From the IMG/VR virus record IMGVR_UViG_3300029414_000238: 64,000 nt of DNA; one strand, given 5' to 3'. Shown here piece by piece: positions 6,655-45,518 of this stretch; position 1 is the stretch's first letter, and every line of letters begins with the position of its first letter. A model generated the notes under the pieces. It did no database searches and was not told where the DNA came from. It worked only from the letters and a program-made list of their open reading frames with translations. The DNA is from a virus. The position numbers and the translations under genes are program-made.

Positions 6655-6692
6655 TTTACTTTGACGATTTTTCAAAAGGCGCAATATGTGTA
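6655..6692 (+). promoter_or_regulatory. conserved promoter-like cassette, copy 1
   Basis: tttgacgatttttcaaaaggcgcaatatgtgtaatg. Copies occur at 6655, 9432, 13562, 14462, 17651, 17921, 41041 and 45471, with a weaker one at 35315. Confidence 0.55.
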
Positions 6693-6730
6693 ATGAAGAC
6701 GAAAATAAGACGATTTTGGAGGGAGAAAAA

Positions 6731-7060
6731 ATGAAAATTTACTTTGAGGATGGAAAACTTGTCAATATTAAGCAATTACCGATTGCGCCGGATTATGTGA
6801 TTGATGCTTCTGATGGAGTAACTGCCTGCATGGATATGCTGGATCGAATTTACTCGACTAATCGAGATGCAGTTGTATATACAAATTCAATTATTGCATT
6901 CAGTAACCGGTATGCATGGAATGAAGAGAAGAAAATTTCGGATGTTTATATCAGAGATGGAGAGGGTATGGAATTTACCAATATTGCGCTTCTGACAAAT
7001 AGACAACTTCGGGAGGGGCATAATCTCGCGAAGTTGTATCTTGGCGGTGAGTTCCGGTAG
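6731..7060 (+). CDS. hypothetical protein
   Basis: ORF 6686-7060; ATG 6731 follows GGAGGGAG and lies 40 nt downstream of the cassette. Confidence 0.45.
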   Translation: MKIYFEDGKLVNIKQLPIAPDYVIDASDGVTACMDMLDRIYSTNRDAVVYTNSIIAFSNRYAWNEEKKISDVYIRDGEGMEFTNIALLTNRQLREGHNLAKLYLGGEFR

Positions 7061-7454
7061 GAAAGAAAGGGAAAAATCATGGACAAAAGTGGAGTAATTA
7101 ACGGATAGACTTACGAGGAAACAAACCAGACTGCGAAAACTGCATGATTGTGGGAAAAAATATGTACAGATAGGATGTCCTACGACAGCTTATGGGATTT
7201 GTGTAGGCATACAAAAAGGAAATTGATGAATACTATGCGGTCGGAGTCCCAGAAGAGCGCCTGGAAAATGCAGAAAAGCAGAGAAAGGAAGAAAAACTTG
7301 AGCAAGAATCTAATTTGCATATGAGGGTATAGCAGATTCAAGATCGGTTGTATGTATTATTTTTGAAAGGGGTGATGCCTATTGAGAGTTAATTTTAAAG
7401 AGAGTACATAAATAGCAGTTTAAAAAATCATAAAGAATGTGAGGGAAAAAATAT

Positions 7455-9239
7455 ATGAGTGGTTTACCATTTGATCCTATTATTATTGCGGTTGTCGCGG
7501 TCGTTGTGATCCTTATCGGCATACTTGCCAGCGGGTATGTCAAAGCGCCGGCAGACAAGGCATACATCATTTCCGGACTTAAGAAAGTTCCGAAGGTGTT
7601 AATTGGCCGGGCAGGAATTAAGATTCCTTTTCTGGAAAGAAAAGACGAACTTCTGTTAAAGCAGATCGGTATTGATATTAAAACCGGAGGCTATGTTCCA
7701 ACGAAAGATTTCATCGGTGTTGATATTGATGCGATTGCAAAAATCCGTCTGATTTCCATGCAGGATGTAGGCAAAGAGAAAACCTATACCAGAACAATCG
7801 TTGATGAGATTGTTGACGGCAGCAATACAAAAGATGGAGATAAAGAATATTCAACTCATACAGAAACTGTTACAATCAAGATTACAGAAGATATGGCGCG
7901 TGCGGCAATGCGGAATTTCCTTAATATGAAAGAATCCAACATTGTTGAAGCTTTACAGGATTCTTTACAGGGAAATATGAGAGAAATCGTTGGTACGCAG
8001 ACATTGCGTGCTTTGTGCCAGGATCGTAAATCTTTTGGTGATGAGGTTCAGAGCAAAGCGCAGCCGGATATGAATGCCCTCGGTGTATGGATCGAGTCCT
8101 GCAATATTCAGCGTATTGAGGACGAACAGGATCTGATCAATGCTCTTGGTATGGATAACATGGCTGCTATCCAGAAGAGTGCAAGCATTGCAAAGGCAGA
8201 GGCTGACAAAGACGTTGCGATTGCACAGGCGAAGGCAGCAAGAGAAGCAAATGATGCAAAAGTCGCCGCTGATACGGAAATTGCTGAGAAGCAGAACGAG
8301 CTTGCAATCAAAAAGGCAGAATTACAGCAGCTCTCTGACACAAAGAAGGCGATTGCGGATGCTGCTTATAAGATTCAGGAACAGGAACAGCGTAAAGCGA
8401 TTGAGACAGCAAAAGTTAATGCAGATATTGCAGAGCAGGAAAGAACTGTTGAACTTCGCGAGAAGGAAGCACAGGTTGCAGAACAGACACTTAATGCGAC
8501 GGTAAAGAAGCAGGCGGATGCAGATAAGTACAGCAGACAGCAGGCTGCAGAAGCAAATCTGATTGAAAAATCCCGTCAGGCTGATGCAGAAAAATATCAG
8601 CAGGAGAAGGAAGCAGAAATCCAAAAGATTAAGGCAGAGGCCGATAAGGAAGCGAAGAAAAAAGAAGCAGAAGGTATTCTTGCAATCAAGAGATCAGAAG
8701 CAGAAGGTATCGCCGCTGTAGGTAAAGCAGAAGCTCAGGCAATCGAAGCAAAAGGTATTGCAGAAGCTCAAGCAATGGAGAAAAAAGCAGAAGCTTATTC
8801 AAAGTATAACAAGGCTGCTGTTGCAGAAATGACGATCAAAATGCTTCCAGAGCTTGCAGCCAAAGTTGCTGAGCCGCTTGGACAGATTGACAAAATCACA
8901 ATCATCGGAGGCGGCGATGGCAGCAATGGTATCGAACAGGTTGCCGGGAATGTTCCTGTTGTTATGGCGAAGGTCTTTGAGAGTGTCAAAGAAGCTACAG
9001 GGATAGATCTGACAAGTATTGTTAATGCTGAGTCTTACGATGCGAAGGTTAACCGCAATGTTAATTTAACCGGTATCAAAGATACGGTGGCAATTTCCGG
9101 CGGATCAAAGAGTGATACTGACGCAGATAAAACCGAGAATTCCGGCATCGATTCTGATTTATCAGGAGAAAATGCAGAGGTCATCCGTTCTTTGGCAGAA
9201 AATGCTAATCAGGAATCAGCTGACAGTAATCTGGACTAA
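7455..9239 (+). CDS. flotillin-like SPFH/band-7 protein
   Basis: N-terminal TM helix (IIIAVVAVVVILIGILASGYV), an SPFH region, then a long Ala/Glu/Lys-rich coiled coil (AKAEADKDVAIAQAKAAREANDAKVAAD...), as in FloT/YuaG. The internal overlapping ORFs 8108-8624 are frame artefacts of this repeat. Confidence 0.75.
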   Translation: MSGLPFDPIIIAVVAVVVILIGILASGYVKAPADKAYIISGLKKVPKVLIGRAGIKIPFLERKDELLLKQIGIDIKTGGYVPTKDFIGVDIDAIAKIRLISMQDVGKEKTYTRTIVDEIVDGSNTKDGDKEYSTHTETVTIKITEDMARAAMRNFLNMKESNIVEALQDSLQGNMREIVGTQTLRALCQDRKSFGDEVQSKAQPDMNALGVWIESCNIQRIEDEQDLINALGMDNMAAIQKSASIAKAEADKDVAIAQAKAAREANDAKVAADTEIAEKQNELAIKKAELQQLSDTKKAIADAAYKIQEQEQRKAIETAKVNADIAEQERTVELREKEAQVAEQTLNATVKKQADADKYSRQQAAEANLIEKSRQADAEKYQQEKEAEIQKIKAEADKEAKKKEAEGILAIKRSEAEGIAAVGKAEAQAIEAKGIAEAQAMEKKAEAYSKYNKAAVAEMTIKMLPELAAKVAEPLGQIDKITIIGGGDGSNGIEQVAGNVPVVMAKVFESVKEATGIDLTSIVNAESYDAKVNRNVNLTGIKDTVAISGGSKSDTDADKTENSGIDSDLSGENAEVIRSLAENANQESADSNLD

Positions 9240-9339
9240 CAGAATATGTAATTTAAGACATATACCGGGGTACTTGCGTATTCTGGTATATGTCTTTTTA
9301 TGCTTTTATGGTGAGAGTTTTATTTTTGATCATGGCGAA

Positions 9340-9432
9340 ACGATACCAAAGAAAGTCCGGTTTGCAGTGTACGAAAAATGCAACCACCGGTGCAGTTTTT
9401 ACTTCGAAAAGATCGGACTGGATATGGCGTAA
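9340..9432 (+). pseudogene. internally deleted remnant of an HNH endonuclease gene (paralog of 46757-47191)
   Basis: KKVRFAVYEKCNHRC (the HNH start) is fused directly to YFEKIGLD (the HNH C-terminus; compare QFYFEKIGINID at 47120). Confidence 0.5.
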
Positions 9433-9482
9433 GTTTTCAAAAAATCTTTGACGATTTTTCAAAAGGCGCAATATGTATAGTG
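9432..9482 (+). promoter_or_regulatory. conserved promoter-like cassette, copy 2
   Basis: aagttttcaaaaaatctttgacgatttttcaaaaggcgcaatatgtatagtg. Confidence 0.55.
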
Positions 9483-9619
9483 TAAAGGTCATAAACCGAG
9501 CTGCCAGGGTTACCGGCTGGCAGAAAATCCTTTCGAAAAATGTTTACGTTCCGGGAAATCCCCGGAAAGGATAGTGGGTACGCAGCGCAAGTTATTCCGG
9601 GTTCGACTCCCGGATATCC
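9483..9619 (+). ncRNA. structured tRNA-like RNA element, family A copy 1 (candidate 5' leader or sRNA)
   Basis: Three hairpins: ctgccag-ggttaccgg-ctggcag, ccggg-aaat-ccccgg, and a T-arm-like ccgggTTCGActcccgg closed by ggata/tatcc. The second copy at 14513-14646 shows compensatory changes. Confidence 0.4.
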
Positions 9620-9658
9620 TTTTTCAAAATTGCAGGAAAAATGTGGAGGAAAAGAGAA

Positions 9659-9963
9659 TGGATGAACTGATCAAGAAACTTCGGATGTATGCAGACACAT
9701 ACAAAAAAGAACCAGCCGGACGGGAAGTTGAAGGTACCGTGGAATTGCTCGAAAATTCTGCAGATGCTTTGCAGGAAGCAGGGGAGGCTGTTCAAAAATT
9801 AAAGCAGAGATTTGTGGATGGAATAGATGTCCATTACCAGGGACATGATGCCGACGATTACATTGAGTGTCCTTTCTGCGGATACGAGGTTGCAGCGATC
9901 GACGATTACTGTGAGCTGCGCCCAAATCATTGTCCGAAATGTGGAACAAAGCTGATATACTAG
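9659..9963 (+). CDS. hypothetical protein with C-terminal zinc ribbon
   Basis: ATG 9659 follows GGAGGAAAAGAGA. The C-terminus reads CPFCGYEV...CPKCGTKLIY. The ORF-track start at 9574 lies inside the structured leader. Confidence 0.45.
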
Positions 9964-10315
9964 ATATAGGAGGCTGGCATGAAAGAATTGAGGAAGTTGT
10001 GCATGCACCCATTGTGCGATGCAGAGCCAAAAATGCATACGATTTACGAATATATCGGAAAAGCCGGGACGAAAGGTACGACAGTTTTGTGGTTCCTTGA
10101 GATCCCAAAAAAGGAGCCAAAGTGTATGGGATCAGTGAGGAAGACCATGTTTCTCCGTATATGGAAGGCATGGCATTCCGGTATGCAGAATTCAAACCAT
10201 ACATGATTGATGAGATTTACAGCAATGGATTCGTTGTCTGCCACGAGTGTTAGGATGAGACAAAAATGCGTGTCCAATTAACAAGAAGGAATATGCGGTA
10301 AGTAATGGAGATATT

Positions 10316-10795
10316 GTGGATATAAATGCAGAATACCACAAAAGGGCATCAAATCTTGGCATGGAGAAGCAGAGGACTTACCTTCAGTATGAGATCTCCA
10401 AGCCAGATGCCATCAGAAAAGATCTTGAGACCGCAAAAAAGAGGCTGGAAAATGCAAAAGAAAGAAATTTTAAAACGTTGGATGAGTGGGAAGAAAAAAT
10501 TGAAGCTTATACGAAAGTGTTGGAAGATAGCAAAGTATCTTCCTTGTTTTACAATGATATTTCTAACGCCATTTCGGACGGAACAGCACAGTGCCGTATC
10601 TGTACCTTCGTTTGGCGGGGTAAATGGAAATATACGGAAAATATTTCCCTTGGAGTGTGCGTCGTGATCAAGCACATGGGGTACACCTACATTTTTGGCA
10701 CAAGTCCAGACAGCCAGTATTCTCCATGTTTTGCAGTATGGGAAAGCGAAGGAGAACCAGAGCTGGAAGAAGAAAACTACCTTATAGTCAAGTAA
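10316..10795 (+). CDS. hypothetical protein
   Basis: 159-aa ORF. Confidence 0.35.
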   Translation: MDINAEYHKRASNLGMEKQRTYLQYEISKPDAIRKDLETAKKRLENAKERNFKTLDEWEEKIEAYTKVLEDSKVSSLFYNDISNAISDGTAQCRICTFVWRGKWKYTENISLGVCVVIKHMGYTYIFGTSPDSQYSPCFAVWESEGEPELEEENYLIVK

Positions 10796-10847
10796 GAAAG
10801 AAGCCGGGGAATCCCGACTTTTCTGCTGCATTGTGTGTATATTTTAA

Positions 10848-10921
10848 CGCCGCCTGCGGGATTCGAACCCGCGGATAAAGAGTTCAAAGCTCCCTGCGTT
10901 AACCTTTTCGCCAAGGCGGAG
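10848..10921 (-). tRNA. tRNA-Gln (anticodon TTG)
   Basis: Revcomp gives D-arm GCG-AAAAGGTTAA-CGC, anticodon loop CTTTGAA and T-arm GCGGG-TTCGAAT-CCCGC. The anticodon stem carries GU pairs and CCA is not encoded. Confidence 0.4.
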
Positions 10922-10991
10922 CACACCCGGAAGGACTCGAACCCTCGTTACCGGTTTTGGAGACCAGTTTCTGTCCATCAGACAGGTGCAT
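10921..10991 (-). tRNA. tRNA-Trp (anticodon CCA)
   Basis: Anticodon stem-loop CTGGT-CTCCAAA-ACCGG, T-arm GAGGG-TTCGAGT-CCTTC and D-arm TCTG-ATGGA-CAGA. The acceptor stem contains wobble pairs. Confidence 0.45.
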
Positions 10992-10993
10992 AA

Positions 10994-11065
10994 CAGGCGA
11001 TAATGGAATCGAACCATTGTTTTCTGAGTCAGAATCAGATGTCTTACCATTGAACGAATCGCCCA
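10994..11065 (-). tRNA. tRNA-Gln (anticodon CTG)
   Basis: Anticodon stem-loop TCTGA-TTCTGAC-TCAGA, T-arm AATGG-TTCGATT-CCATT, acceptor GGGCGAT/ATCGCCT. Confidence 0.5.
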
Positions 11066-11066
11066 G

Positions 11067-11138
11067 TATCCCCAAAGGGACTCGAACCCTTAACCGACAG
11101 ATTAGAAATCTGTTGCTCTTTCCAATTGAGCTATGGGG
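11067..11138 (-). tRNA. tRNA-Arg (anticodon TCT)
   Basis: Acceptor ATCCCCA/TGGGGAT, D-arm GCTC-AATTGGAAA-GAGC, anticodon stem-loop ACAGA-TTTCTAA-TCTGT, T-arm AAGGG-TTCGAGT-CCCTT. Confidence 0.55.
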
Positions 11139-11145
11139 ATATATA

Positions 11146-11230
11146 GCGCAGACACCGGGGATCGAACCCGGACAGCGGGTGTGCCGCATGCCACATTAGC
11201 AGTGTGGAGGGGTACCATTTACCTTTATAT
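11146..11230 (-). tRNA. tRNA-Ser (anticodon GCT), long variable arm
   Basis: Acceptor GCAGACA/TGTCTGC, anticodon stem-loop CCACA-CTGCTAA-TGTGG, long variable arm, T-arm CCGGG-TTCGATC-CCCGG. The D-arm is atypical. Confidence 0.45.
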
Positions 11231-11239
11231 GTCTGCATA

Positions 11240-11313
11240 AGAGGCATCGGAGGGGATCGAACCCTCGCCTTCCGGGTTGCAGCCGGACGCCTTCGCCGTT
11301 TGGCTACGATGCC
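11240..11313 (-). tRNA. tRNA-Cys (anticodon GCA)
   Basis: Acceptor GGCATCG/CGATGCC, anticodon stem-loop TCCGG-CTGCAAC-CCGGA, T-arm GAGGG-TTCGATC-CCCTC. Confidence 0.6.
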
Positions 11314-11342
11314 ATATAATTCTTCCCGATAAGAGAAGATGA

Positions 11343-11429
11343 GCGCTGGGGCAGGGAGTCGAACCCTGATATCCTTTCGGAATGACGGTTTTCAGGACCG
11401 TTGCTTTACCAGTTGAGCCACCACAGCAA
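11343..11429 (-). tRNA. tRNA-Ser (anticodon TGA), long variable arm
   Basis: Anticodon stem-loop ACGGT-CCTGAAA-ACCGT, a variable-arm hairpin TCC-GAAA-GGA, T-arm CAGGG-TTCGACT-CCCTG. Position 33 is C, which is unusual, and the acceptor has one mismatch. Confidence 0.4.
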
Positions 11430-11672
11430 AAATAAAAGCATACACCTCTCAATCGAAAGATGTATGCTTTGCAATTCCAGGTATTTCCAATATTCTCCCG
11501 GAAATTTCCCTACAATGACCACATTTCTTTCAATTTGAGACAATATTTATTTGCACGACAACTACGCCAGATACATGACTGCGACTGACTCATACTTGCC
11601 TGTGAATATTGTCTCATTACTGCTGTAATCATTGATTTTCCCTTCCTTTCCTTGGTTTTCTTGAATATTTAG

Positions 11673-11749
11673 TGTGTCTGGTGGGACTTGAACCCGACGA
11701 CCCCACGATTAAAAGTCGCGTGCTCTGCCAACTGAGCTACAGACACATA
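11673..11749 (-). tRNA. tRNA-Lys (anticodon TTT)
   Basis: Acceptor GTGTCTG/CAGACAC, D-arm GCTC-AGTTGGCAG-AGC, anticodon loop CTTTTAA. The T-stem has an A.C mismatch. Confidence 0.55.
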
Positions 11750-11823
11750 AGCGGATCAGGAGGGAATCGAACCCTCATCTTCCGGTAGACAGCCGGATGT
11801 ACTAGCCGCTATACTACAGATCC
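11750..11823 (-). tRNA. tRNA, probably Asp (anticodon GTC)
   Basis: T-arm GAGGG-TTCGATT-CCCTC, anticodon stem-loop TCCGG-CTGTCTA-CCGGA. Position 37 is a pyrimidine and the acceptor has a U.U mismatch. Confidence 0.35.
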
Positions 11824-11827
11824 ATAA

Positions 11828-11900: not shown

Positions 11901-11983
11901 AGGAACACTTCCGACGGGTGCTGCCCCGCTATCTCCGCCGTGACAGGGCGGTGACTCTGTTGTTTGTCCTCGGAAGTAAATAA

Positions 11984-12066: not shown

Positions 12067-12071
12067 ATAAG

Positions 12072-12142: not shown

Positions 12143-12145
12143 AGA

Positions 12146-12216: not shown

Positions 12217-12841
12217 ATGCGGATAAAAGAAGTGCCTGTTTTCTCTTATCCATTCAGTTTTTTTACCGCATCGCTGCGGAGTGGACAGGAGTGGTAACGA
12301 TCCACCCTGTAAGGATTTTCAGTCCTTCGCTAATCCATCTCAGCTACCTGTCCATGGCTTTTTCTGCAATAAAAAAGCCGCATCAAGAAATTTCCTCTTC
12401 TCTCTGCGGTCATCTGCGTTTTGCAATATTTCGGTTTTAAGTGCCTGGTTTAAAATCGAAATCGACCGCGGGAAGGTGTATCATAATAGTTCTGTCCCCA
12501 TGTTTTCCCGGATTTTGAGCATGAGAAACTAAACATATTGCTGAAATCGCCGTATGTTCTACAATCATTATTAAAATTTTTACTACTCATCATCTTTAAC
12601 ATGGTTTTCTTTTCCTTTCATTTTAATTAATGCTGGATAAACAAAAAGCCCGTCACTTAACTCAAAGCTACACATCCAAATAGCTCTGAGTTAAAAGACA
12701 GGCACTTCTTTTATCTCATGCACCTATCATATCATACTGATCGTGAAGTGTCAACAGGAAATTTAAAAAAGGTTATTTTCCTAAAGGTTATTTTTGGTTA
12801 TTTTGGTTATTTTTCAAAATAAAACAAAATAAAACAAATAA

Positions 12842-13526: not shown

Positions 13527-13552
13527 ACACTTTTAATATGAAATATTAAAAA
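13527..13552 (-). promoter_or_regulatory. conserved minus-strand promoter element (ATTTCATATTRAAAGTGTAAA family), copy 1
   Basis: On the minus strand: TTGAAA-N16-TATTAA, then atttcatattaaaagtgtaaa, about 35 nt upstream of ATG 13495. Related copies sit at 14428, 58346 and 58665. Confidence 0.45.
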
Positions 13553-13561
13553 TATTTCAAA

Positions 13562-13610
13562 AAATTTCCGGAAATTTTTGACGAAATTTCAAAAGGCGCA
13601 ATATATGTAA
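13562..13610 (+). promoter_or_regulatory. conserved promoter-like cassette, copy 3
   Basis: aaaaatttccggaaatttttgacgaaatttcaaaaggcgcaatatatgtaatg. Confidence 0.5.
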
Positions 13611-13632
13611 TGAAAGGAGGAGGAAATACAAA

Positions 13633-14400: not shown

Positions 14401-14461
14401 GTTTTGCTCCTTTCAAAATACTTTCGTTTACACTTTCAATATGAAATGAAAATATTTCAAA

Positions 14462-14510
14462 ACATTTCCAAAAACTTTTGACGATTTTTTAAATGGCGCA
14501 ATATGTATCA
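14462..14510 (+). promoter_or_regulatory. conserved promoter-like cassette, copy 4
   Basis: aacatttccaaaaacttttgacgattttttaaatggcgcaatatgtatcatg. Confidence 0.55.
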
Positions 14511-14512
14511 TG

Positions 14513-14646
14513 TAAAGGTCATAAACCGAGCTGCCAGGGTTATCGGCTGGCAGAAATCTTTTCGATATTTGTTTACACTCCGGGGAAACCCGGAAGGGGT
14601 AGTGAGGACGCAGCGTGTGCTGTTTCCGGGTTCGATTCCCGGGTAT
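14513..14646 (+). ncRNA. structured tRNA-like RNA element, family A copy 2
   Basis: Same three-hairpin architecture as 9483-9619 with covarying stems (ccgggg-aaa-cccgg; ccgggTTCGAttcccgg). Confidence 0.4.
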
Positions 14647-17650: not shown

Positions 17651-17710
17651 CAATTTTTTAAAAATTTTCCAAAATCTTTTGACGATTTTTTAAAAGGCGC
17701 AATATACATA
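17651..17710 (+). promoter_or_regulatory. conserved promoter-like cassette, copy 5
   Basis: aaaaattttccaaaatcttttgacgattttttaaaaggcgcaatatacatattg. Confidence 0.55.
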
Positions 17711-17711
17711 T

Positions 17712-17920
17712 TGAAGGGATAAACAGGGGCTTACCGTTTGTTTCTTCAATAAGAGTTTTTCTCTTATATGCCTCCTTAAGTTTCCTGCGCTGCATTTACA
17801 GCATTTTGGCAGCGCAGGGGGAATCCACAGGACTGCATTTGACGTTGTGTGGCGGCCTGCTCATCCGGTTCAACCCCGGAGGATTCCCTTACCGCTTATT
17901 TTTGCGGAGACAAAAATTTT
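17712..17920 (+). ncRNA. candidate small RNA, family B, between two cassette copies
   Basis: No ORF is present. Starts aaacaggggcttaccg, as the cas-operon leader does (17981-, aaacaggggcttgccg). Contains a 10-bp perfect hairpin cctgcgctgc...gcagcgcagg and a T-loop-like ccGGTTCAAccCCgg, and ends in the terminator ccgcttatttttgcgg plus A/T run. Confidence 0.35.
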
Positions 17921-17975
17921 AAAAAATATTCAAAAATTCTTTGACGATTTTTTAAAAGGCGCAATATGTGTATTG
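17921..17975 (+). promoter_or_regulatory. conserved promoter-like cassette, copy 6 (candidate cas-operon promoter)
   Basis: aaaaatattcaaaaattctttgacgattttttaaaaggcgcaatatgtgtattg, 90 nt upstream of cas5c. Confidence 0.55.
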
Positions 17976-18020
17976 AAGGAATAAACAGGGGCTTGCCGCT
18001 GTTGATTACCAGAGTTAAAA

Positions 18021-18060: not shown

Positions 18061-18735
18061 ATGGAAAAAGAAAAAATGGGAGTGAAACTAAAAGTCTGGG
18101 GAGATTACGCATTGTTCACCAGACCAGAACTGAAAACTGAACGGTATACATACGATGTGATGACACCGTCGGCGGCTAGAGGAATTCTGGAATCTATCTA
18201 CTGGCATCCGGGACTTCGGTGGTATGTAGACAAGATTCATGTATTAAATCCGATTGCCACTACGAGCGTGAGAAGAAATGAACTTCTCAGTAAGATACCA
18301 AAGTCAAATATGCTGCAGGCATACAACGGCGGGGATGTGAAACTGTATAACTCGTCAAGAGACGATATTATCCAGAGGGCATCTGTTATTCTCCGGGATG
18401 TCTGCTATGTGATTGAGGCGCATTTTGAAATGACAGGGAAAGCGAGCCCAACAGACAGCCCGGCAAAGTTTATAAGTATCTTTAACAACAGGGCAAGAAA
18501 AGGGGCATGTTATTCGATGCCGTATTTTGGTGTAAGGGAATTCCCGGCACACTTTGAACTCTGCGAAGGAGATGAAAAGATCCCATCCTACTATGAAGGA
18601 CTTCCGGATAAAGATCTCGGGCTGATGCTTTATGATCTGGATTACTCCTGCGGTAGAGATATCCAGCCAATGTATTATCATGCGATTATGAAAAACGGCG
18701 TTATTGACGTTGGGAACAGTGAGGTGCTTCGATGA
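18061..18735 (+). CDS. cas5: Cas5c (Cas5d, type I-C)
   Basis: VWGDYALFTRPELKTERYTYDVMTPSAARGILESIYWHPGLRWYVDKIHVL is the Cas5d N-terminal signature; the gene overlaps cas8c by ATGA. Confidence 0.85.
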   Translation: MEKEKMGVKLKVWGDYALFTRPELKTERYTYDVMTPSAARGILESIYWHPGLRWYVDKIHVLNPIATTSVRRNELLSKIPKSNMLQAYNGGDVKLYNSSRDDIIQRASVILRDVCYVIEAHFEMTGKASPTDSPAKFISIFNNRARKGACYSMPYFGVREFPAHFELCEGDEKIPSYYEGLPDKDLGLMLYDLDYSCGRDIQPMYYHAIMKNGVIDVGNSEVLR

Positions 18736-20471
18736 TCCTTCAGTCACTTGTGAAATTATATGAAACACTTGCGGATCAGGGAAAAGTGTCCCGTCCTGGC
18801 TGGTGTAATGCAAAGGTATCCTATGCGGTGGTTTTAAACCATGATGGGACGATTAAAGATATTGTTTCCGTGAAACAGAAAGTGAAGAGAGGAAAGAAGA
18901 CTGTTGAAATTCCAATAATTATGCAGGTTCCAGAGATGGTCACCCGCGCTAACAACATTGCCTCCAGCTTTCTCTGCGAAAATGCAAAGTATCTCTTTGG
19001 GATTGACGAAAAGATGAGTTTGCGTACACTGGAATGTTTTAAGGCGGCAAAGAAAAAACATCTTGATATTCTTGATGTTGTGGATTCACCTGTAGCACAG
19101 ACGGTATGTAACTTTTTCCGTTCATGGGATCCGGAACAGGCGTTGGATCAACCGGCTGTTGCAAAACTTGCAGAAGAGTTTTATAAAGGCGGAAACCTCG
19201 TTTTTGAAGTAGATGGGGAATATGTGCATGATAATGAAGAAGTCCGCAGGGCATGGATGGATTACAGCAGTGTACCATATGAAATGGTAACTGGAAGATG
19301 CCTTATTACTGGAGAGGAAGCGGAGATTGCCCGCACGCACGGGAAAATCAAAGGAGTTCCGGGAGCACAGTCATCTGGCGCGTCGCTTGTATCATTTAAC
19401 GGAGCATCCCTTGAGTCTTATGAAAAAACACAGAGCTACAACGCGCCGATTAGCACCTATGCGGCGTATGCATATGTGACCGCGCTGAATTACTTGCTTT
19501 CTACGGACGGGTATCACAGCAAGGTAGGAGATTCCATGGTGGTTTTCTGGACAGATTCCGGGGATGTGGATGATGTGAGCAGACTGCGGAAGATGATGGG
19601 AAGCATCAATGAAAAGGATCACACCCCTACAGATACGGATGAAAAACTGTACGTCCTCTGCCTTGCACCAAATGCCGGGCGAATTGCAGTCCGGTTCTTC
19701 TATGAGGATGCGATCGGGGTAATCTGGGAAAACCTGTCCGAACATGCCAGTCGGATGAAGATTGTAAAACCAGTATTTGAGGATCAAGAATTTATCAATA
19801 TCTGGCAGATGCTCATGGAGACAGTCAACCAGAATCTTACAGATAAAATACCTGTCCCGCATATGTCAGCAATGACGTTACAGTCAGTCATTTCGGATAC
19901 ACCGTATCCGCAGAGTCTGTATGCAGGTGTGTTATCTCGTATCCGCGCGGAGCACAAAGGTGTTACTTACAGAAAAGCATCGATTATTAAAGCTTTTTTA
20001 ATAAAGAACTACAAATGGGAGGAAGGAAAAAATATGGAAGCATTAAATGAAGGCTGTAAGGATCGGGCATATATCCTTGGAAGACTGTTTGCGGTTATGG
20101 AAAAGGCACAGAAAGAAGCAGTTGGCAATATCAACCAGACAATTTGTGATAAGTTTTACAATTCCGCGTGCACAACACCAAGATCGATCTTTCCAGTACT
20201 GATCAGGCTATCTAACAGTCATTTAAGTAAGTTGAAACGGACAAAACCGGGGAGAGGATATTATTTTACAGCTAAAATGCAGGATTTAATGGATAAAATT
20301 CCGGTAACAGATGATGATCCGGGATTCCCGCGGCGTTTCTCATATGAGGATCAGGGTAAGTTTGCACTTGGTTATTATCATCAGATGCGGGCGGAATATA
20401 CAAGCAGTAAGTTAAAAGATAATGATTCAGAAGGTGATCAGACAAATGCAGAGAATATGGAGGAAAACTAA
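18732..20471 (+). CDS. cas8c: Cas8c (Csd1, type I-C large subunit)
   Basis: 579 aa; MILQSLVKLYETL is the typical Csd1 start; it lies between cas5 and cas7. Confidence 0.8.
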   Translation: MILQSLVKLYETLADQGKVSRPGWCNAKVSYAVVLNHDGTIKDIVSVKQKVKRGKKTVEIPIIMQVPEMVTRANNIASSFLCENAKYLFGIDEKMSLRTLECFKAAKKKHLDILDVVDSPVAQTVCNFFRSWDPEQALDQPAVAKLAEEFYKGGNLVFEVDGEYVHDNEEVRRAWMDYSSVPYEMVTGRCLITGEEAEIARTHGKIKGVPGAQSSGASLVSFNGASLESYEKTQSYNAPISTYAAYAYVTALNYLLSTDGYHSKVGDSMVVFWTDSGDVDDVSRLRKMMGSINEKDHTPTDTDEKLYVLCLAPNAGRIAVRFFYEDAIGVIWENLSEHASRMKIVKPVFEDQEFINIWQMLMETVNQNLTDKIPVPHMSAMTLQSVISDTPYPQSLYAGVLSRIRAEHKGVTYRKASIIKAFLIKNYKWEEGKNMEALNEGCKDRAYILGRLFAVMEKAQKEAVGNINQTICDKFYNSACTTPRSIFPVLIRLSNSHLSKLKRTKPGRGYYFTAKMQDLMDKIPVTDDDPGFPRRFSYEDQGKFALGYYHQMRAEYTSSKLKDNDSEGDQTNAENMEEN

Positions 20472-20472
20472 G

Positions 20473-21384
20473 ATGAGCACACCAATTAAGAACAGATATG
20501 ATTTCGTAGTATTATTCGACGTAGAGAATGGAAATCCGAACGGTGATCCGGATGCCGGAAATATGCCGAGAGTTGATCCAGAGACTGGCATCGGGCTTGT
20601 GACAGATGCCTGCATAAAGCGCAAGATCCGTAATTATGTGGAAACTGTAAAAGAAGATGCAGCCGGGTTCAAGATCTATATTAAAGAGGGGGTCCCGCTG
20701 AACCGGAGTGACCTTAAGGCAGTCGAAAGTCTTGGTATTGACGTCGGTGACGACAAAAATGCACTTGAAGATGTAAAGAAGCTGAAAAAGACAGATGAAG
20801 ATGTGGATCTTAAGCTCCGTGACTATATGTGTAGTAATTTCTATGATATCCGTACATTTGGTGCTGTCTTGACTACCTTTACAAAGGCGGCATTAAACTG
20901 TGGGCAGGTACGTGGCCCGGTACAGATTGGTTTTGCAAAAAGTATTGATCCTGTTTTCAGCCAGGATATTACTGTAACCAGAGTTGCAATCACAACGGAA
21001 AAGGATGCGGAAAAGAAAAATACAGAAATGGGAAGAAAGAGTATTATTCCTTATGGACTTTACCGTGTGGAGGGATATATTTCTGCTAATCTTGCCCGTA
21101 AGACCACCGGCTTTTCTGAAGACGATCTGGAACTGCTTTGGGAAGCAATCATTAACATGTTTGAGAATGACCATTCCGCAGCACGCGGGAAGATGGCAGT
21201 GCGTGAGCTCATCGTATTCAAGCATAACAGCGAGCTTGGCAATTGTCCATCGTACAAACTGTTTGAAACTGTTGATGTTAAGAAGAATGATGGTGTTGAG
21301 TTTCCTCGTAAATATTCCGATTATGCAGTGACTATTCATGAGGATGCGATTCCGGATGGCGTGACAATGACTCGCAAAATCTAA
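20473..21384 (+). CDS. cas7: Cas7c (Csd2, type I-C)
   Basis: MSTPIKNRYDFVVLFDVENGNPNGDPDAGNMPRVDPETGIGLVTDACIKRKIRNYV is the Csd2 signature. ATG 20473 sits 1 nt after the cas8c stop; the ORF-track start at 20422 is an artefactual extension. Confidence 0.85.
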   Translation: MSTPIKNRYDFVVLFDVENGNPNGDPDAGNMPRVDPETGIGLVTDACIKRKIRNYVETVKEDAAGFKIYIKEGVPLNRSDLKAVESLGIDVGDDKNALEDVKKLKKTDEDVDLKLRDYMCSNFYDIRTFGAVLTTFTKAALNCGQVRGPVQIGFAKSIDPVFSQDITVTRVAITTEKDAEKKNTEMGRKSIIPYGLYRVEGYISANLARKTTGFSEDDLELLWEAIINMFENDHSAARGKMAVRELIVFKHNSELGNCPSYKLFETVDVKKNDGVEFPRKYSDYAVTIHEDAIPDGVTMTRKI

Positions 21385-21634: not shown

Positions 21635-22346
21635 GCTACGCCCCATGGAGGGGCGTATGGATTGAAAATACCGCAACAATTAAAGGCAATGAAAATCTTG
21701 TACGCTACGCCCCATGGAGGGGCGTATGGATTGAAAATGATTGTTATTGTTTTTTATTCATGGAGAGGAAAGCTACGCCCCATGGAGGGGCGTATGGATT
21801 GAAAAGTAAGGTTTCGTCTCGAAGCCTTTATTCTGTTTTGCTGCGCCCCATGGAGGGGCGTATGGATTGAAATACCAAAATCTTTTGACATTCTTATAAA
21901 TGGTAACAGCTACGTCTTATGGGGTACGTATGGATTGAAATCATAATAATTGTAGAGATCTCAATACAAAATAAAGCTGCGTCTCATGGAATACGTATGG
22001 ATTGAAATGAAAAGGCGAGTTTGCGAAAGCAGATATTGGAATGTTGCGTCTCGTGGAGTACGTATGGATTGAAATTCCAACTTTAACTACATAACTATCC
22101 TGATAAACTTGCTGCACCCCATGGAGAGTGTATGGATTGAAATTTAAAAAATCATGGATAACATCTGCGATAAGACGTTGCACCTCGCTAGGGGTGTATG
22201 GGTTGAAATTTCCATAATCGGTAGCCAATTATTATCATTAGGTGTTGCACCCCATAGAGGGTGTATGGATTGAAATTATATAAAAATGATGAATATGTAA
22301 AAAAAATAAAAGAGTTACGCTCCATGGAGTGCGTATGGCTTGAAAC
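21635..22346 (+). CRISPR. CRISPR array, 11 repeats of 33 nt and 10 spacers of 33-37 nt, type I-C repeat family
   Basis: The first four leader-proximal repeats are identical (gctacgccccatggaggggcgtatggattgaaa); later repeats diverge progressively (..gtcttatggggtac.., ..gcaccccatagagggtg..). The period is 66-70 nt and the last repeat ends GAAAC. ORFs 21587-21870 and 21941-22228 are artefacts of the repeats. Confidence 0.9.
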
Positions 22347-35250: not shown

Positions 35251-35452
35251 GCAGCCAAAACACAGTTCCATATTCATGATATAGGACTGTGTTTTTTTTG
35301 TAAGAAAATAAATAAAATTTTAAATTTCCTTTGACGAATTTTGAGATGGATAAATATATATACTGAAGATAAAAATTGCCATACAGGAGACAGAACACAT
35401 AGAATTTTCTGTCATCCTTTAAATATCAGAAAATTAAAGGAGAACAATTTCC

Positions 35453-40929: not shown

Positions 40930-41035
40930 GAGATAGGTTAACTACTCCTGACAATGCAGGAGACTTTTTCTTAGATATTTTATTAAATAAATGACCGATA
41001 GCCTTGTGTTTTTTACACAGGGCTATTTTTTTCTA
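40930..41035 (+). terminator. two tandem rho-independent terminators
   Basis: ctcctgacaatgcaggag+cttttt and atagccttgtg...cacagggctat+ttttttt. Confidence 0.55.
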
Positions 41036-41040: not shown

Positions 41041-41105
41041 GCAAAAATTTTTAAAAACTTTTCAAGATTTCTTTGACGATTTTTCAAATGACGCAATATC
41101 TATAG
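41041..41105 (+). promoter_or_regulatory. conserved promoter-like cassette, copy 7
   Basis: aaaaatttttaaaaacttttcaagatttctttgacgatttttcaaatgacgcaatatctatagtg. Confidence 0.5.
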
Positions 41106-41142
41106 TGTAAGGATAAAAATGCGAAGTACAAGGAGGAAAAAT

Positions 41143-41979: not shown

Positions 41980-42735
41980 ATGAAAAAAATAATAAAGCGT
42001 ATGCTTCAGGCAAAAACAAAAGAAGAACTTTTGACATGCGAGGTAGATCTGCAGATTCAATACAATCATCTTTCAGAAGAATTGTTGGAGGATGGTGCGA
42101 TAAGTGAAAAGGATTACGAGGGAATTTTGACGTTTTACCGTTCCTCTCGAGAATTGTTGGTGGATATTAATGAGAAAGCAGAAAATTTACAAAAAAAATT
42201 TCCGAGAGCCATTGAGATTTTACAGCTTGCGATTTTGTACTATTCCCGAGAAATTCTGCATTTGTTGTATTCGGGATATTGGGATAATCTGCTTGTGATG
42301 AAGGGTAAGAAAAAAGAACGGTTTGTTAATCTGGTTGAAGAACTTGAAAAAAGCCAGATGGGATTATTCCTTGGTCTGTGGCAGTGCTTTTCTTTTACAA
42401 TCATCGGTATTGGGGATTACAAAAAGAGGTCAGAAAGCCGGAATCGCAAAAGGTGGACTGAATATTGTACTGTATTAGAGTTGGATCAGCCAGAGGAAAT
42501 TACTATTTATAACAATGATTATGAAGAGCTTTTGAATCATTCTTTAACTTCCTTTGGTGGAAGCCTGTTTTCGCAAATTGTAGACAGGTGTCTCGGGCAA
42601 TACATTGCTTATTTTACAAAGATCGAATACATACTCAATTATCAGCCGATTTTCGTAGGTGCGGCATTTACATTGTTAAAAATTATAGCAGAAGAAAAGA
42701 GAAAATCGCAGAAAACGGAGGTGCAAAAGATGTAA
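41980..42735 (+). CDS. hypothetical protein (251 aa)
   Basis: ORF with RBS GGAAGTGAATGT. Confidence 0.45.
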   Translation: MKKIIKRMLQAKTKEELLTCEVDLQIQYNHLSEELLEDGAISEKDYEGILTFYRSSRELLVDINEKAENLQKKFPRAIEILQLAILYYSREILHLLYSGYWDNLLVMKGKKKERFVNLVEELEKSQMGLFLGLWQCFSFTIIGIGDYKKRSESRNRKRWTEYCTVLELDQPEEITIYNNDYEELLNHSLTSFGGSLFSQIVDRCLGQYIAYFTKIEYILNYQPIFVGAAFTLLKIIAEEKRKSQKTEVQKM

Positions 42736-42916: not shown

Positions 42917-43020
42917 GTTGCACTCCCGCGGAGGGGGTGCATGGATTGAAATCGACTTTCAAAACGGTAATTGGATTTTACTACGCTGCGTCCCCGCGAG
43001 GGGCGCATGGATAAAGAAAC
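42917..43020 (+). CRISPR. mini-array: repeat - 32-nt spacer - degenerate repeat, in the 5' leader of gene 43039
   Basis: gttgcactcccgcggagggggtgcatggattgaaat ... gctgcgtccccgcgaggggcgcatggataaagaaac. Confidence 0.6.
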
Positions 43021-44767: not shown

Positions 44768-44792
44768 ACGATTTTAGGAGAAAAATTGATTT

Positions 44793-44993
44793 ATGGGATC
44801 AAAGGATTTTATTTTTTATTATTACATAGTTTGCGGAATATTATTTATGGTATATGGATTCGTGTTGATTGGCGGTTTTCTTAAAATGAAAAGCAACGAT
44901 ACTGGTGTGCCTTATCTAATAGTAGGTATTGTTGAAATTTTTTTAGGTATTTTATTGATGTTTTTGTTGTGGAAAACAAAATTTGCTTATTAA
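44793..44993 (+). CDS. small membrane protein
   Basis: 66 aa with two TM helices. Confidence 0.35.
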   Translation: MGSKDFIFYYYIVCGILFMVYGFVLIGGFLKMKSNDTGVPYLIVGIVEIFLGILLMFLLWKTKFAY

Positions 44994-45015
44994 AAAAGTG
45001 ATGGAGGAAAGATTA

Positions 45016-45402
45016 TTGAAGAAGAGAATAGGAATGCTTACAGTAATTGGATGTATTTTTTTTAGTGGAATGTTTGTCGGTGGATGCAGAATGCCGGATA
45101 CGGTTAAAGGAACATTGTCGTCAGATGGAACTATCTATGATGTTGAGTCGTACAAGTTGAGTGGAGACGTTACGTTTCTTCCAATTTCTGTACAGAAGAT
45201 TGATAACCACAGTGCAGAGTCGACTGTGATTACAGAATTTGTTAATATCAAGGATAAGACGGTGTGGATGCAGTCGTACAAAGGATATTATCGGGCAGAC
45301 AGTGGTGTTGGGCAGAGCATGGTTCAAGAACTTGATCCGGATGGAAAACCGAAGCTGTACTCTGGGGATATTAACGAACTGATCAAAAAATTTCAGAAAT
45401 AA
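45016..45402 (+). CDS. lipoprotein with shared C-terminal tail DPDGKPKLYSGDINELIKKFQK (TTG start)
   Basis: GGAGGAAAGATTA-TTGAAGAAGAGAATAGGAATG, lipobox FVGGC, and a tail identical in pattern to that of 30439-31363. A terminator follows at 45415-45445. Confidence 0.45.
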   Translation: MKKRIGMLTVIGCIFFSGMFVGGCRMPDTVKGTLSSDGTIYDVESYKLSGDVTFLPISVQKIDNHSAESTVITEFVNIKDKTVWMQSYKGYYRADSGVGQSMVQELDPDGKPKLYSGDINELIKKFQK

Positions 45403-45470
45403 TAAGGTTACTTTATAAAACTGCCTCGTTTTGGGGCAGTTTTTGTTTAAAATTTAAAAAATGAAAGAAA

Positions 45471-45518
45471 ATACAGATTTGACTTTGACGATTTTATAAA
45501 TGGCGCAATATGTATAGT
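45471..45518 (+). promoter_or_regulatory. conserved promoter-like cassette, copy 8
   Basis: aaatacagatttgactttgacgattttataaatggcgcaatatgtatagtg. Confidence 0.5.

What the first reader, a model, noticed from the sequence alone, without database searches (positions are those of the whole stretch)
6655..45518. A conserved promoter-like cassette of about 50 bp repeated at least eight times in front of unrelated cargo genes
AAAATTTYCAAAAAWCTTTGACGATTTTTYAAAAGGCGCAATATGTATAGTG occurs at 6655, 9432, 13562, 14462, 17651, 17921, 41041 and 45471, with a weaker copy at 35315, always in the plus orientation and 30-450 nt upstream of a start codon. It contains a TTGACG -35-like hexamer, an A/T-rich UP-like region, and an invariant AAAGGCGCAATATGT block longer than a simple -10. 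This points to a dedicated sigma factor or regulator site shared by cargo genes and the cas operon: a regulon-like or integron-like expression module.
Basis: seen in the sequence. Interest (0 to 1): 0.7.

Follow-up and report, generated by a model that had tools for sequence, protein, structure and literature searches.

The report
Shared promoter module of a giant gut element
A conserved stretch of about 75 bp, repeated nine times in this window, is most likely the standard transcription-start module of a very large, very common plasmid-like element of human-gut Lachnospiraceae (Roseburia); it is real and tightly conserved, but it is a new example of a known kind of thing, and what reads it is still unknown.

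Summary
There are nine copies, eight strong and one weak, all on the + strand. No further copy was found on either strand. The 37-nt cores are about 85% alike, while the flanks are at background (27-28%).

Each copy starts a transcription unit. It lies after a terminator or a divergent gene. It lies 20-416 nt before an RBS-preceded start codon, or directly before a structured RNA. One copy precedes cas5-cas8c-cas7.

The motif matches more than 108 stretches of human-gut metagenome contigs, but only 4 stretches among 185,579 species genomes. It was not found in the viral, phage or plasmid collections. In relatives it precedes a helicase, TnpB-like genes, parA, an exonuclease, CRISPR arrays and solitary repeats. 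So it serves the whole element, not only cargo.

The anatomy is A-tracts, an invariant TTGACG, a variable gap, ATGGCGCAATAT and a conserved TG. It does not fit a canonical sigma-70 promoter. The element's tRNA-array promoter does fit.

No sigma factor, regulator or integrase was found. The MITE, integron, single-strand-promoter and Cascade-target readings were tested and not supported.

One CRISPR spacer of the element matches (33/34, TTC PAM) a cassette-like promoter in the Roseburia faecis chromosome.

Verdict: a private promoter family, probably with an unidentified regulator.

The parts
6632..6705 (+). Cassette copy 1 (core 6659-6695). It follows a hairpin plus T-run. It drives a 109-aa ORFan that starts at 6731, then the SPFH/flotillin gene 7455-9239.
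   Evidence: Pfam
9431..9492 (+). Cassette copy 2 (core 9446-9482). It lies after terminator 9255-9296. It drives the structured leader 9481-9630, then three small ORFs (9658-9963, 9979-10206, 10316-10795).
13550..13619 (+). Cassette copy 3 (core 13576-13612). It is divergent from the minus-strand gene 12875-13495. It drives the 110-aa ORF 13633-13965, which is followed at once by a mini-CRISPR (repeats 13962-13996 and 14036-14071).
14449..14521 (+). Cassette copy 4 (core 14476-14512). It is divergent from the minus-strand gene 14125-14400. It drives leader 14511-14660 and the nucleoside-hydrolase-like ORF 14929-15657, which is followed by repeats at 15659-15693 and 15730-15764.
17652..17725 (+). 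Cassette copy 5 (core 17677-17713). It lies after the 4-repeat array 17352-17575 and a hairpin plus T-run. It drives a structured RNA of about 190 nt (17712-17900) with no ORF.
17914..17986 (+). Cassette copy 6 (core 17939-17975). This is the promoter of the cas operon. Its leader carries a degenerate CRISPR repeat (18022-18052) just before cas5.
18061..21384 (+). Type I-C Cascade genes cas5 (18061-18735), cas8c (18732-20471) and cas7 (20422-21384). No cas3, cas1, cas2 or cas4 was found in the window or its 10-kb flanks.
   Evidence: Pfam E = 2.5e-38, 6e-165 and 1e-107
35310..35371 (+). Cassette copy 7, the weak one (core 35329-35365; GGATAAATAT in place of GGCGCAATAT). It lies after a hairpin plus T-run and drives the 478-aa ORF 35453-36889.
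   Evidence: (E = 2.8e-8)
41044..41118 (+). Cassette copy 8 (core 41071-41107). It lies directly after terminator 40997-41027. It drives the DUF5052 gene (start 41143) and ORF 41980-42735, followed by a mini-CRISPR at 42918-43019.
45475..45529 (+). Cassette copy 9 (core 45483-45519). It lies after hairpin 45420-45440 plus a T-run and drives the 240-aa ORF 45607-46329.
21874..21907 (+). Spacer 4 of the main array (21635-22345). It is itself a cassette homologue. It matches 15/15 nt of the copy at 17669-17683 (PAM TTT). It matches 33/34 nt, with a TTC PAM, a cassette-like promoter in the Roseburia faecis chromosome and in metagenome contigs.
12726..12754 (-). Canonical sigma-70-type promoter (TTGACA, 17 nt, TG-TATGAT; 11 of 12) upstream of the 13-tRNA array 10847-12353. 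It serves as an internal contrast to the cassette.

Best explanation
The cassette is the standard promoter module of a very large (contigs up to about 355-376 kb), very prevalent plasmid-like element of gut Lachnospiraceae. Proteins of the element are labelled Roseburia faecis or Anaerobutyricum hallii by their sources.

Anatomy, numbered from the C of CTTTGACG:
- Phased A/T tracts, AAAA at -16..-13 and TTT(C)C at -10..-6, which look like an UP element.
- An invariant TTGACG at 3-8, the -35.
- A freely variable gap at about 10-15.
- A conserved block A-ATGGCGCAATAT at 16-29, whose invariant AATAT most likely carries the -10 contacts.
- A semi-conserved T-R-T-R-N-T at 31-36.
- A conserved T36-G37 and A39, where transcription most likely starts.

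Shown: each copy opens a new transcription unit on the gene strand. The module is conserved independently of what follows it.

Inferred: host RNA polymerase uses TTGACG plus the AATAT region. The extra conserved GC-rich block, a partial palindrome AT-GCGC-AT, is read by an additional unidentified factor, either a repressor or activator or an unusual sigma specificity. If so, the element's units, including its Cascade genes, CRISPR arrays and leader RNAs, form one co-regulated set.
For: Real and non-random.

Promoter context:
- A hairpin plus T-run or a called terminator lies directly upstream of copies 6659, 9446, 17677, 35329, 41071 and 45483.
- Copies 13576 and 14476 have a divergent gene upstream.
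- RBS-preceded starts lie 20-416 nt downstream.
- Of 69 non-redundant instances from other contigs, 56 have an RBS plus ORF downstream, at a median of about 50 nt.

Conservation: the logo of the 69 instances, and of the 22 that do not match the search pattern, keeps TTTGACGA, ATGGC-CAATAT, T31, T33, T36, G37 and A39, while positions 10-15 vary freely.

Start near G37:
- In copy 13576 the RBS begins 3-4 nt after G37.
- In both cassette-driven RNA families the 5' helix begins at T36/G37; in family 2 that hairpin carries compensatory changes.

Element-wide use:
- Cassettes also lie outside the window's variable block, at L117 2565 and 5182 and at L114 15889, 17861 and 20440.
- They precede a Suv3-like helicase, TnpB-like genes, an SMC-like gene, RNase T and ParA.
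- They serve as CRISPR leader promoters in L034, L072 and L001.

Distribution: more than 108 metagenome stretches, against 4 stretches in 185,579 species genomes and 0 in IMG/VR.

Host machinery favoured: a near-consensus copy (3 core mismatches, GGCGCAATAT intact) lies in the R. faecis JCM 17581 chromosome next to ABC-transporter genes, in an assembly with no other match.
Against: The geometry is not canonical.
- TTGACG is 15 nt from CAATAT, 16 nt from AATATR (no T at -7), 18 nt from TATRTR (no T at -7) and 22 nt from the TATANT-like hexamer.
- The tool's sigma-70 scan calls none of the nine copies, yet it calls the tRNA-array promoter of the same element at 11 of 12.

No transcription start has been mapped. 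No cognate regulator was found. The palindrome in the block is imperfect: 4 of 5 pairs over AT-GCGC-AT, and 5 of 7 when extended to 16-29. The logo is partly biased, because loci were collected with a pattern that fixes 20 positions.
Confidence: 0.6

Rival explanations
1. The cassette is a promoter for a dedicated alternative sigma factor, or for an RNA polymerase of the element's own. TTGACG plus GGCGCAATAT would be the two recognition blocks of a non-housekeeping sigma, encoded in the roughly 250 kb of the element not seen here or by the host.
For: The block is longer and more invariant than a -10, and its spacing from TTGACG is not canonical. The same element has an ordinary sigma-70-type promoter for its tRNA array, so two promoter classes coexist. 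The total conserved information is far above that of a plain promoter: about 47 bits in the core in the subset of 22, which is a biased estimate.
Against: No Pfam sigma domain was found in any window ORF scanned. None was annotated in the 10-kb flanks. No beta-prime NADFDGD motif was found. A near-consensus copy lies in an R. faecis chromosome whose assembly shows no sign of the element. Only about 84 kb of one element of 300 kb or more was inspected.
Confidence: 0.2
2. The conserved block is a Cascade target. The element's type I-C Cascade, for which no cas3 was found nearby, would be guided by crRNA-like RNAs from the solitary repeats and mini-arrays that follow the cargo genes. It would bind PAM-flanked sites in the cassettes and repress them, as in the CRISIS/crlRNA systems of bioRxiv 10.1101/2024.12.27.630466.
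For: The layout matches that paper: promoter, then gene(s), then a repeat unit directly after the gene, near cas5c. A TTC or TTT lies at -10..-7 upstream of the -35, and another at 13-15. Spacer c4 matches 15 contiguous nt over the -35 of the copy at 17669-17683. It also matches 33/34, with a TTC PAM, a cassette-like promoter in R. faecis.
Against: None of the 13 pseudo-spacers next to the mini-arrays or solitary repeats matches a PAM-flanked site in any cassette above the shuffled null: 13 hits with at least 12 of 15 matches, against 4-24 in the shuffles. Only c4 among 85 unique spacers in all held loci resembles the cassette. The PAM-proximal positions after the second TTC, and positions 14-15 themselves, vary. 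The c4 match to the element's own copy has a TTT PAM and a mismatch at position 1.
Confidence: 0.07
3. The repeat is the end of a small mobile element (MITE or IS), or a site-specific recombination site such as an integron attC or attI. In that case its promoter-like look would be incidental.
For: Units led by cassettes are gained and lost between related elements, and some breakpoints lie just upstream of a cassette. In L035 the break is at window 6577. In L060 homology resumes at 17933. The two adjacent copies at 17652 and 17914 are 87% identical direct repeats.
Against: All nine copies, and all flank copies, are in one orientation, always that of the downstream gene. There are no terminal inverted repeats and no paired copies bounding a unit. 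Folding as single-stranded DNA shows no consistent hairpin (z = 0.58, -1.52, -0.86, -1.13, 0.51, -2.75). No integrase or transposase lies next to the copies. Conservation stops at about -27 and +49, with unrelated flanks on both sides.
Confidence: 0.04
4. It is a single-strand (Frpo-like) promoter of a conjugative leading region, active as a hairpin in the entering strand.
For: The neighbourhood looks like a leading or anti-defence region. It holds orphan C5 and N6/N4 methylases, LPD1, SNF2/DEAD helicase, Lar-like and PcfJ-like genes, and a Mob_Pre-like gene, all on one strand.
Against: The single strand has no stable or conserved secondary structure. The module is about 75 bp with ordinary double-strand promoter features. 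It also drives parA and CRISPR arrays elsewhere.
Confidence: 0.02

Closest known systems
Conserved promoter families of large phages, such as the early promoters of T4, T5 and SPO1 (from general knowledge)
   Same: There are many copies in one genome, all co-oriented with the genes. They carry an A-rich upstream element and a -35-like hexamer, are conserved well beyond the two hexamers, and each opens a short operon of ORFan genes.
   Different: No phage hallmark genes were found, and there was no match in IMG/VR or INPHARED. The -10 geometry is not canonical, and a GC-rich block fills the spacer. The same module also drives partition, cas and CRISPR units.
Global regulons of plasmids: KorA/KorB operators of IncP-1 and omega-repressor heptads of inc18 plasmids (from general knowledge)
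   Same: One short sequence recurs in many promoters of a single plasmid, overlaps the core promoter, and ties backbone and accessory genes into one circuit.
   Different: No cognate repressor was found here. The conserved block is only a partial palindrome and is not iterated. The whole promoter is conserved, not only an operator.
CRISPR leader promoters and promoter-driven solitary repeat units (Racr: PMC10651486; crlRNA/CRISIS: bioRxiv 10.1101/2024.12.27.630466)
   Same: In relatives the cassette lies 30-90 nt upstream of the first type I-C repeat of arrays and solitary repeats (L001, L034, L072). In the window, repeat units directly follow cargo genes, as in acr-racr operons and CRISIS modules.
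   Different: Most copies drive ordinary genes. The pseudo-spacers do not target their own promoters. The window's main array has no cassette in its leader.
Integron cassette arrays
   Same: Arrays of unrelated, same-strand accessory genes with recurring short sequence elements between them.
   Different: There is no integrase and no attC or attI. Every unit carries its own promoter, whereas integron cassettes depend on a single Pc.

Membership tests
Sigma-70 / sigma-A type promoter | A -35 hexamer close to TTGACA | tested here: met
   TTGACG in 9 of 9 window copies. In 69 non-redundant instances T, T, G, A and C are in all 69 and G is in 68. It is also kept in all but one (L104: TTGACA) of the 22 instances not selected by the exact pattern.
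Sigma-70 / sigma-A type promoter | A -10 hexamer close to TATAAT (A at position 2, T at position 6), 16-18 bp after the -35 | tested here: not met
   The consensus scan calls none of the nine copies. The candidates are CAATAT at 15 nt, AATATR at 16 nt, TATRTR at 18 nt and TATANT at 22 nt.
Sigma-70 / sigma-A type promoter | Placed at the head of a transcription unit, co-oriented with it | tested here: met
   Terminators or divergent genes lie upstream, and an RBS plus ORF or a structured RNA lies downstream.
Sigma-70 / sigma-A type promoter | A mapped transcription start and dependence on the holoenzyme | not testable with these tools
   Needs 5' end mapping or in vitro transcription.
Plasmid global regulon (operator shared by many promoters) | The same operator-like sequence in many promoters of one replicon | tested here: met
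   9 copies in the window, plus 5 in the 10-kb flanks of the same element.
Plasmid global regulon (operator shared by many promoters) | A cognate DNA-binding regulator encoded by the replicon | tested here: inconclusive
   None was found in the window, its flanks or the related loci. More than two thirds of the element was not inspected, and most proteins are ORFans.
Integron | A tyrosine-recombinase integrase with attI, and attC sites at cassette ends | tested here: not met
   No integrase domain was found in any scanned ORF. No attC-like imperfect inverted repeats were seen. The 3' ends of four units carry CRISPR repeats instead.
Integron | Promoterless cassettes expressed from one common Pc | tested here: not met
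   Each unit has its own copy of the cassette.
MITE / IS terminal repeat | Terminal inverted repeats, target-site duplication, and insertion in either orientation | tested here: not met
   Only one orientation is seen, with no inverted partner and no hairpin.
CRISIS / crlRNA-controlled promoter (type I-C) | A solitary repeat unit directly after the controlled genes, with Cascade genes present | tested here: met
   Repeats start at the stop codon of 13633-13965, 2 nt after 14929-15657, about 180 nt after 41980-42735 and 17 nt after 16463-17335. The Cascade genes are at 18061-21384.
CRISIS / crlRNA-controlled promoter (type I-C) | A pseudo-spacer complementary (about 16 bp, with positions 6 and 12 free) to a TTC/TTA-flanked site at the promoter of those genes | tested here: not met
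   No pseudo-spacer scores above the shuffled controls. Only array spacer c4 resembles a cassette.
Frpo-type single-strand promoter | A long stable hairpin in the transferred strand that mimics a duplex promoter | tested here: not met
   z-scores of 0.58 to -1.52 for five copies. The sixth, at -2.75, is explained by the upstream terminator hairpin.

The most novel reading that the evidence does not exclude
The cassette may be the address label of a private transcription programme of a giant Roseburia-associated plasmid-like element. An element-specific factor (a sigma factor, an appropriator or a global repressor) would read ATGGCGCAATAT. The element's type I-C Cascade, for which no cas3 was found nearby, would exploit the same label: spacer c4 would direct it, with a TTC PAM and a 33/34 match, onto the -35 region of a cassette-type promoter in the host or a rival genome. 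That would silence the promoter rather than cut it. A weaker 15-nt match would place Cascade on the cassette upstream of its own cas operon. Promoter identity and CRISPR targeting would then be coupled in one mobile element.
Probability: 0.15. Interest if true: 0.75.

Novelty: new member of a known kind. Interest (0 to 1): 0.45.

Why it matters
The element is among the most widespread unannotated DNA in the human gut. One of its proteins is recorded on at least 1000 contigs, and the exact Mob_Pre-like protein appears in 906 blocks of the collection. Almost all of its genes are ORFans. A single promoter module that is easy to recognise gives three practical things:
- a way to delimit its transcription units and to find its non-coding RNAs, two structured tRNA-like leader families having been found this way;
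- a handle for identifying the factor that controls the whole element;
- a ready-made native promoter for genetic tools in Roseburia and other Lachnospiraceae, which are hard to engineer.

The promoter-matching CRISPR spacer also offers a testable case of promoter targeting by a mobile-element Cascade with no cas3 nearby.

Tried and rejected
1. Near and distant DNA searches of annotated phages and plasmids, with the first 25 kb of the window and with one cassette, found nothing useful.
2. Rfam at gathering thresholds over the whole window, and at E <= 1 over 9300-18200, gave only tRNAs and chance hits. Neither the cassette nor its leaders belongs to a known RNA family.
3. Searches for a sigma factor, RNA polymerase or regulator used Pfam on about 95 window ORFs, phmmer with RpoD and RpoE on 4,479 ORFs, a beta-prime motif search, and a pooled Pfam scan of 150 proteins from related loci. 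None turned up. The pooled scan shows only its top 25 families, so it is a weak negative.
4. Self-targeting in the CRISIS manner by the pseudo-spacers was not above the shuffled null.
5. Spacers matching the cassette in other loci: only c4.
6. Three spacers searched exactly in IMG/VR gave no match.
7. A sigma-54, sigma-28/SigD, SigH, MerR-type long-spacer, FNR/CRP-like, NrdR-box or Spo0A-box reading of the motif was compared by eye with consensus sequences recalled from memory. None fits in spacing or in the conserved positions. These are leads that were dropped, not formal tests.
8. PHROGs on ten large ORFs gave no phage structural or replication hallmark.
9. A literature search for a described giant Lachnospiraceae or Roseburia element or promoter found nothing relevant.

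Full report
**1. The observation**

The 15-mer AAAGGCGCAATATGT, with up to two mismatches, occurs seven times, all on the + strand. The expectation is 0.22, and no shuffle out of 100 reaches seven.

A fuzzy search with the 37-nt core CTTTGACGATTTTTCAAAAGGCGCAATATGTATAGTG finds nine copies, all on +. They start at 6659, 9446, 13576, 14476, 17677, 17939, 41071 and 45483 (0-6 mismatches) and at 35329 (9 mismatches).

A profile HMM built later from 69 non-redundant copies in other contigs recovers exactly these nine and nothing else on either strand.

The copies are 0.84 identical in the core and 0.68 over -30..+49. They are 0.27-0.28 identical in the 100 nt on either side. So this is a discrete module of about 75-80 bp.

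The 'invariant' block shows a few substitutions.

**2. What each copy sits in front of**

Six copies follow a hairpin plus T-run, or a terminator called by the tool. The copies at 13576 and 14476 abut divergent minus-strand genes.

Downstream, eight copies have an RBS-preceded start codon 20-416 nt after core position 37. The gene products found were these:
- a 109-aa ORFan, followed by an SPFH/flotillin protein;
- three small proteins, one with a zinc ribbon;
- a 110-aa ORFan;
- a protein weakly similar to nucleoside hydrolases;
- Cas5, Cas8c and Cas7 of type I-C;
- a 478-aa ORFan;
- a DUF5052 protein;
- a 240-aa ORFan.

The copy at 17677 has no ORF. It is followed by a structured RNA of about 190 nt and then the cas promoter copy.

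The two long gaps, at 9446 and 14476, are filled by a shared structured leader.

**3. The element**

The window has almost all genes on +. It carries a 13-tRNA array on the minus strand and orphan C5 and N6/N4 methylases. It also has PcfJ-like, Lar-like, YopX, HNH and TnpB-like genes, and a Mob_Pre-like gene behind ten 24-bp iterons. Most proteins have no family.

Exact copies of its proteins lie on hundreds of metagenome contigs, up to 355-376 kb long. The SPFH protein is labelled by NCBI as coming from a Roseburia faecis MAG and from Anaerobutyricum hallii.

The flanks add LPD1, an SNF2/DEAD helicase, RecJ, an AAA ATPase, HNH, PilZ and DUF4317.

There is no close DNA match in annotated phages or plasmids, and no match in IMG/VR. 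I read it as a giant plasmid-like element. Phage versus plasmid is not settled.

Window positions 4.3-57.0 kb form a variable block bounded by 219-bp direct repeats. The block is missing from one relative. Cassettes also occur outside it.

**4. Distribution of the cassette**

The search pattern was TTGACGNNNTTNNNAANGGCGCAATAT. Its results were:
- no match in IMG/VR;
- four stretches in one-genome-per-species GTDB: one in the R. faecis JCM 17581 chromosome and three on one contig of an uncultured Lachnospiraceae;

In the held loci I counted 178 instances, 101 unique and 69 non-redundant.

Of the 69 non-redundant instances, 56 have an RBS plus ORF downstream, and 9 have a type I-C repeat within 300 nt.

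The downstream genes include a Suv3-like helicase, two TnpB-like proteins, an SMC-like ATPase, RNase T, ParA, and secreted or membrane ORFans.

So the module is the general promoter of the element, for backbone and accessory genes alike. It is occasionally present in host chromosomes.

**5. Anatomy**

Positions are numbered from the C of CTTTGACG. The logo shows:
- AAAA at -16..-13 and TTT/TTC plus CC at -10..-6;
- cTTTGACGATTTT at 1-13;
- a variable stretch at about 14-15, which widens to 10-15 in the less biased subset;
- AAAtGGCGCAATAT at 16-29, with AATAT invariant;
- R30, T31, R32, T33, R34, N35, T36, G37, W38 and A39, then an A/G-rich start.

The subset of 22 instances that do not match the search pattern keeps the same blocks.

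The tool's sigma-70 scan calls none of the copies. It does call the tRNA-array promoter of the same element, TTGACA-17-TG-TATGAT.

Relative to TTGACG, the candidate -10 hexamers are CAATAT at 15 nt, AATATR at 16 nt, TATRTR at 18 nt and TATANT at 22 nt.

Three indirect hints place the start near G37:
- T36-G37 fits the usual pyrimidine-purine start context. This is general knowledge, not a test.
- The RBS of copy 13576 begins 3-4 nt after G37.
- The 5' helices of both cassette-driven RNA families begin at T36/G37. In family 2 that hairpin carries compensatory changes.

These hints favour the AATAT region as the -10 and argue against the 22-nt hexamer.

The GC-rich part, AT-GCGC-AT, is a partial palindrome, and its reader is unknown.

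**6. Who reads it**

No sigma, RNA polymerase or DNA-binding domain was found in the window ORFs or in the flanks. None was found in 942 kb of cassette-bearing loci.

The copy in the R. faecis JCM 17581 chromosome is near-consensus: 3 mismatches in the 37-nt core, with GGCGCAATAT intact. It lies next to an ABC-transporter gene, in an assembly with no other match. If that copy is functional, host machinery suffices.

My best reading is that host RNA polymerase reads the cassette together with an unidentified extra factor. A dedicated sigma factor remains a serious rival.

**7. The CRISPR connection**

The element carries cas5-cas8c-cas7, with no cas3 and no adaptation genes in the 84 kb inspected. 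Its repeats are:
- an 11-repeat array with heterogeneous repeats (21635-22345);
- a 4-repeat array (17352-17575);
- a degenerate repeat in the cas5 leader;
- mini-arrays directly after cargo genes at 13962, 15659 and 42918, and one at 57303.

This is the layout of acr-racr operons (PMC10651486) and of type I-C CRISIS modules (bioRxiv 10.1101/2024.12.27.630466).

I tested the CRISIS prediction, which is that a pseudo-spacer pairs with a PAM-flanked site at its own promoter. Matches were no better than with shuffled spacers.

One array spacer, c4, is a cassette homologue. It matches 15/15 nt over the -35 of the copy at 17669-17683, with a TTT PAM. It matches 33/34 nt, with a TTC PAM, a diverged cassette in the R. 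faecis chromosome. That target lies about 230 nt downstream of a true cassette plus solitary repeat, and it precedes a small hydrophobic ORF.

Among 85 unique spacers in the held loci, only c4 resembles the cassette. Cascade binding therefore cannot explain the cassette's conservation. The c4 target is still an interesting special case.

**8. Other rivals**

A MITE or recombination site is not supported. There is one orientation only, no inverted repeats, no recombinase, and no consistent single-strand hairpin.

Cassette-led units are nevertheless gained and lost between relatives, and some breakpoints lie next to cassettes.

The integron reading fails on its defining features. The Frpo-like single-strand promoter reading fails on structure.

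**9. Verdict**

This is a real, strongly conserved, element-wide promoter module. It is a new member of a known kind: the private promoter family or regulon of a large mobile element.

It has two unusual traits. The geometry is not canonical and includes a conserved GC-rich block. The module also heads the cas operon, CRISPR arrays or solitary repeats, and tRNA-like leader RNAs.

The factor that reads the block and the exact start site remain to be determined by experiment.

Noticed in passing
window 4094-4312 and 56979-57196 (also 3089-3470 vs 55897-56279): Direct repeats of partial C5-methylase gene copies bound a 52-kb block that holds the tRNA array, the CRISPR-Cas genes and all nine cassettes. 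Relative L113 joins 4312 directly to 56979, so the whole block is absent there.
   Followed up: partly
window 9481-9630 and 14511-14660; also L009, L060, L115, L117, L118: A structured leader RNA shared by two cassettes. Its conserved 5' domain has a UGUAAAG/UGUUUAC closing helix and a CUGCCAG-GGUUACCGG-CUGGCAG hairpin. Its 3' part is a tRNA-like three-way junction: an acceptor-like stem with 4 compensatory pairs, a GNRA hairpin and a GGGUUCGAnUCCCGG T-arm, followed by a U-run. One variant (L115) has a different 3' hairpin. There is no Rfam match. It may be a riboswitch-like attenuator or a processing signal.
   Followed up: partly
window 17712-17900; homologues in L015, L022, L016, L005, L110: A second cassette-driven RNA of about 190-200 nt. 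It has a 5' hairpin and an internal CCUCCUUA, like the 3' end of 16S rRNA. It also has a long helix and a 3' tRNA-like domain (GGGGGAAUCC ... UCCGGUUCAACCCCGGAGGAUUCCC). The alignment of five sequences shows 18 pairs with compensatory changes. In relatives it precedes an ORF or a CRISPR array.
   Followed up: partly
window 21874-21907; L001 7813-7846; L075 10423-10456: An array spacer matches 33/34, with a TTC PAM, the -35 region of a cassette-like promoter in the Roseburia faecis chromosome. That promoter lies downstream of a cassette plus a solitary type I-C repeat, and upstream of a small hydrophobic ORF (MITYSTLFEFCKLIVAIISL...).
   Followed up: partly
window 13962-14071, 15659-15764, 17352-17575, 42918-43019, 57303-57395: Mini-CRISPR arrays of two to four type I-C-like repeats, all on +. 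Most lie directly after a protein-coding gene. The repeat variants differ between arrays and even within the main array (21635-22345).
   Followed up: partly
window 18022-18052; L009 and L060 equivalents: A degenerate CRISPR repeat hairpin lies in the 5' leader of cas5. Relatives at 88-94% protein identity keep it with a different stem sequence. It may be a site for Cas5 binding or cleavage that autoregulates the operon.
   Followed up: no
window 10847-12353 (-) and 29256-29330 (+): An array of 13 tRNA genes on the minus strand, with a canonical promoter at 12754-12726, plus a lone tRNA-Met on the + strand.
   Followed up: no
window 60032-60912: At least ten copies of a 24-bp iteron, GTATCACCTTnnTGGTAC, often in adjacent pairs. 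They lie upstream of the Mob_Pre-like gene 61732-62787. This is a candidate origin, oriT or centromere.
   Followed up: no
window 25328-26429, 37610-38745, 47019-47889, 48278-49493: Tandem paralogous gene pairs at 78-96% DNA identity, a sign of recent local duplication of ORFan genes.
   Followed up: no
window 13520-13575 and 14420-14475 (minus strand): The two divergent minus-strand genes share a conserved 5' region (TTTACACTTTYAATATGAAAT on +). They also share a canonical-looking TTGAAA-16/18-TATTAA promoter that overlaps the A/T-rich upstream part of the cassette.
   Followed up: no
L003, L010, L012, L018, L024, L026, L054, L057, L076, L091, L097, L098: The most frequent metagenome instance of the cassette is followed by a decayed repeat-like hairpin (CATGTACTCCATCCGAAGGGTACGAAAGAAAC) and then a 368-aa membrane protein. 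This suggests that a cassette plus solitary repeat is an old combination.
   Followed up: no
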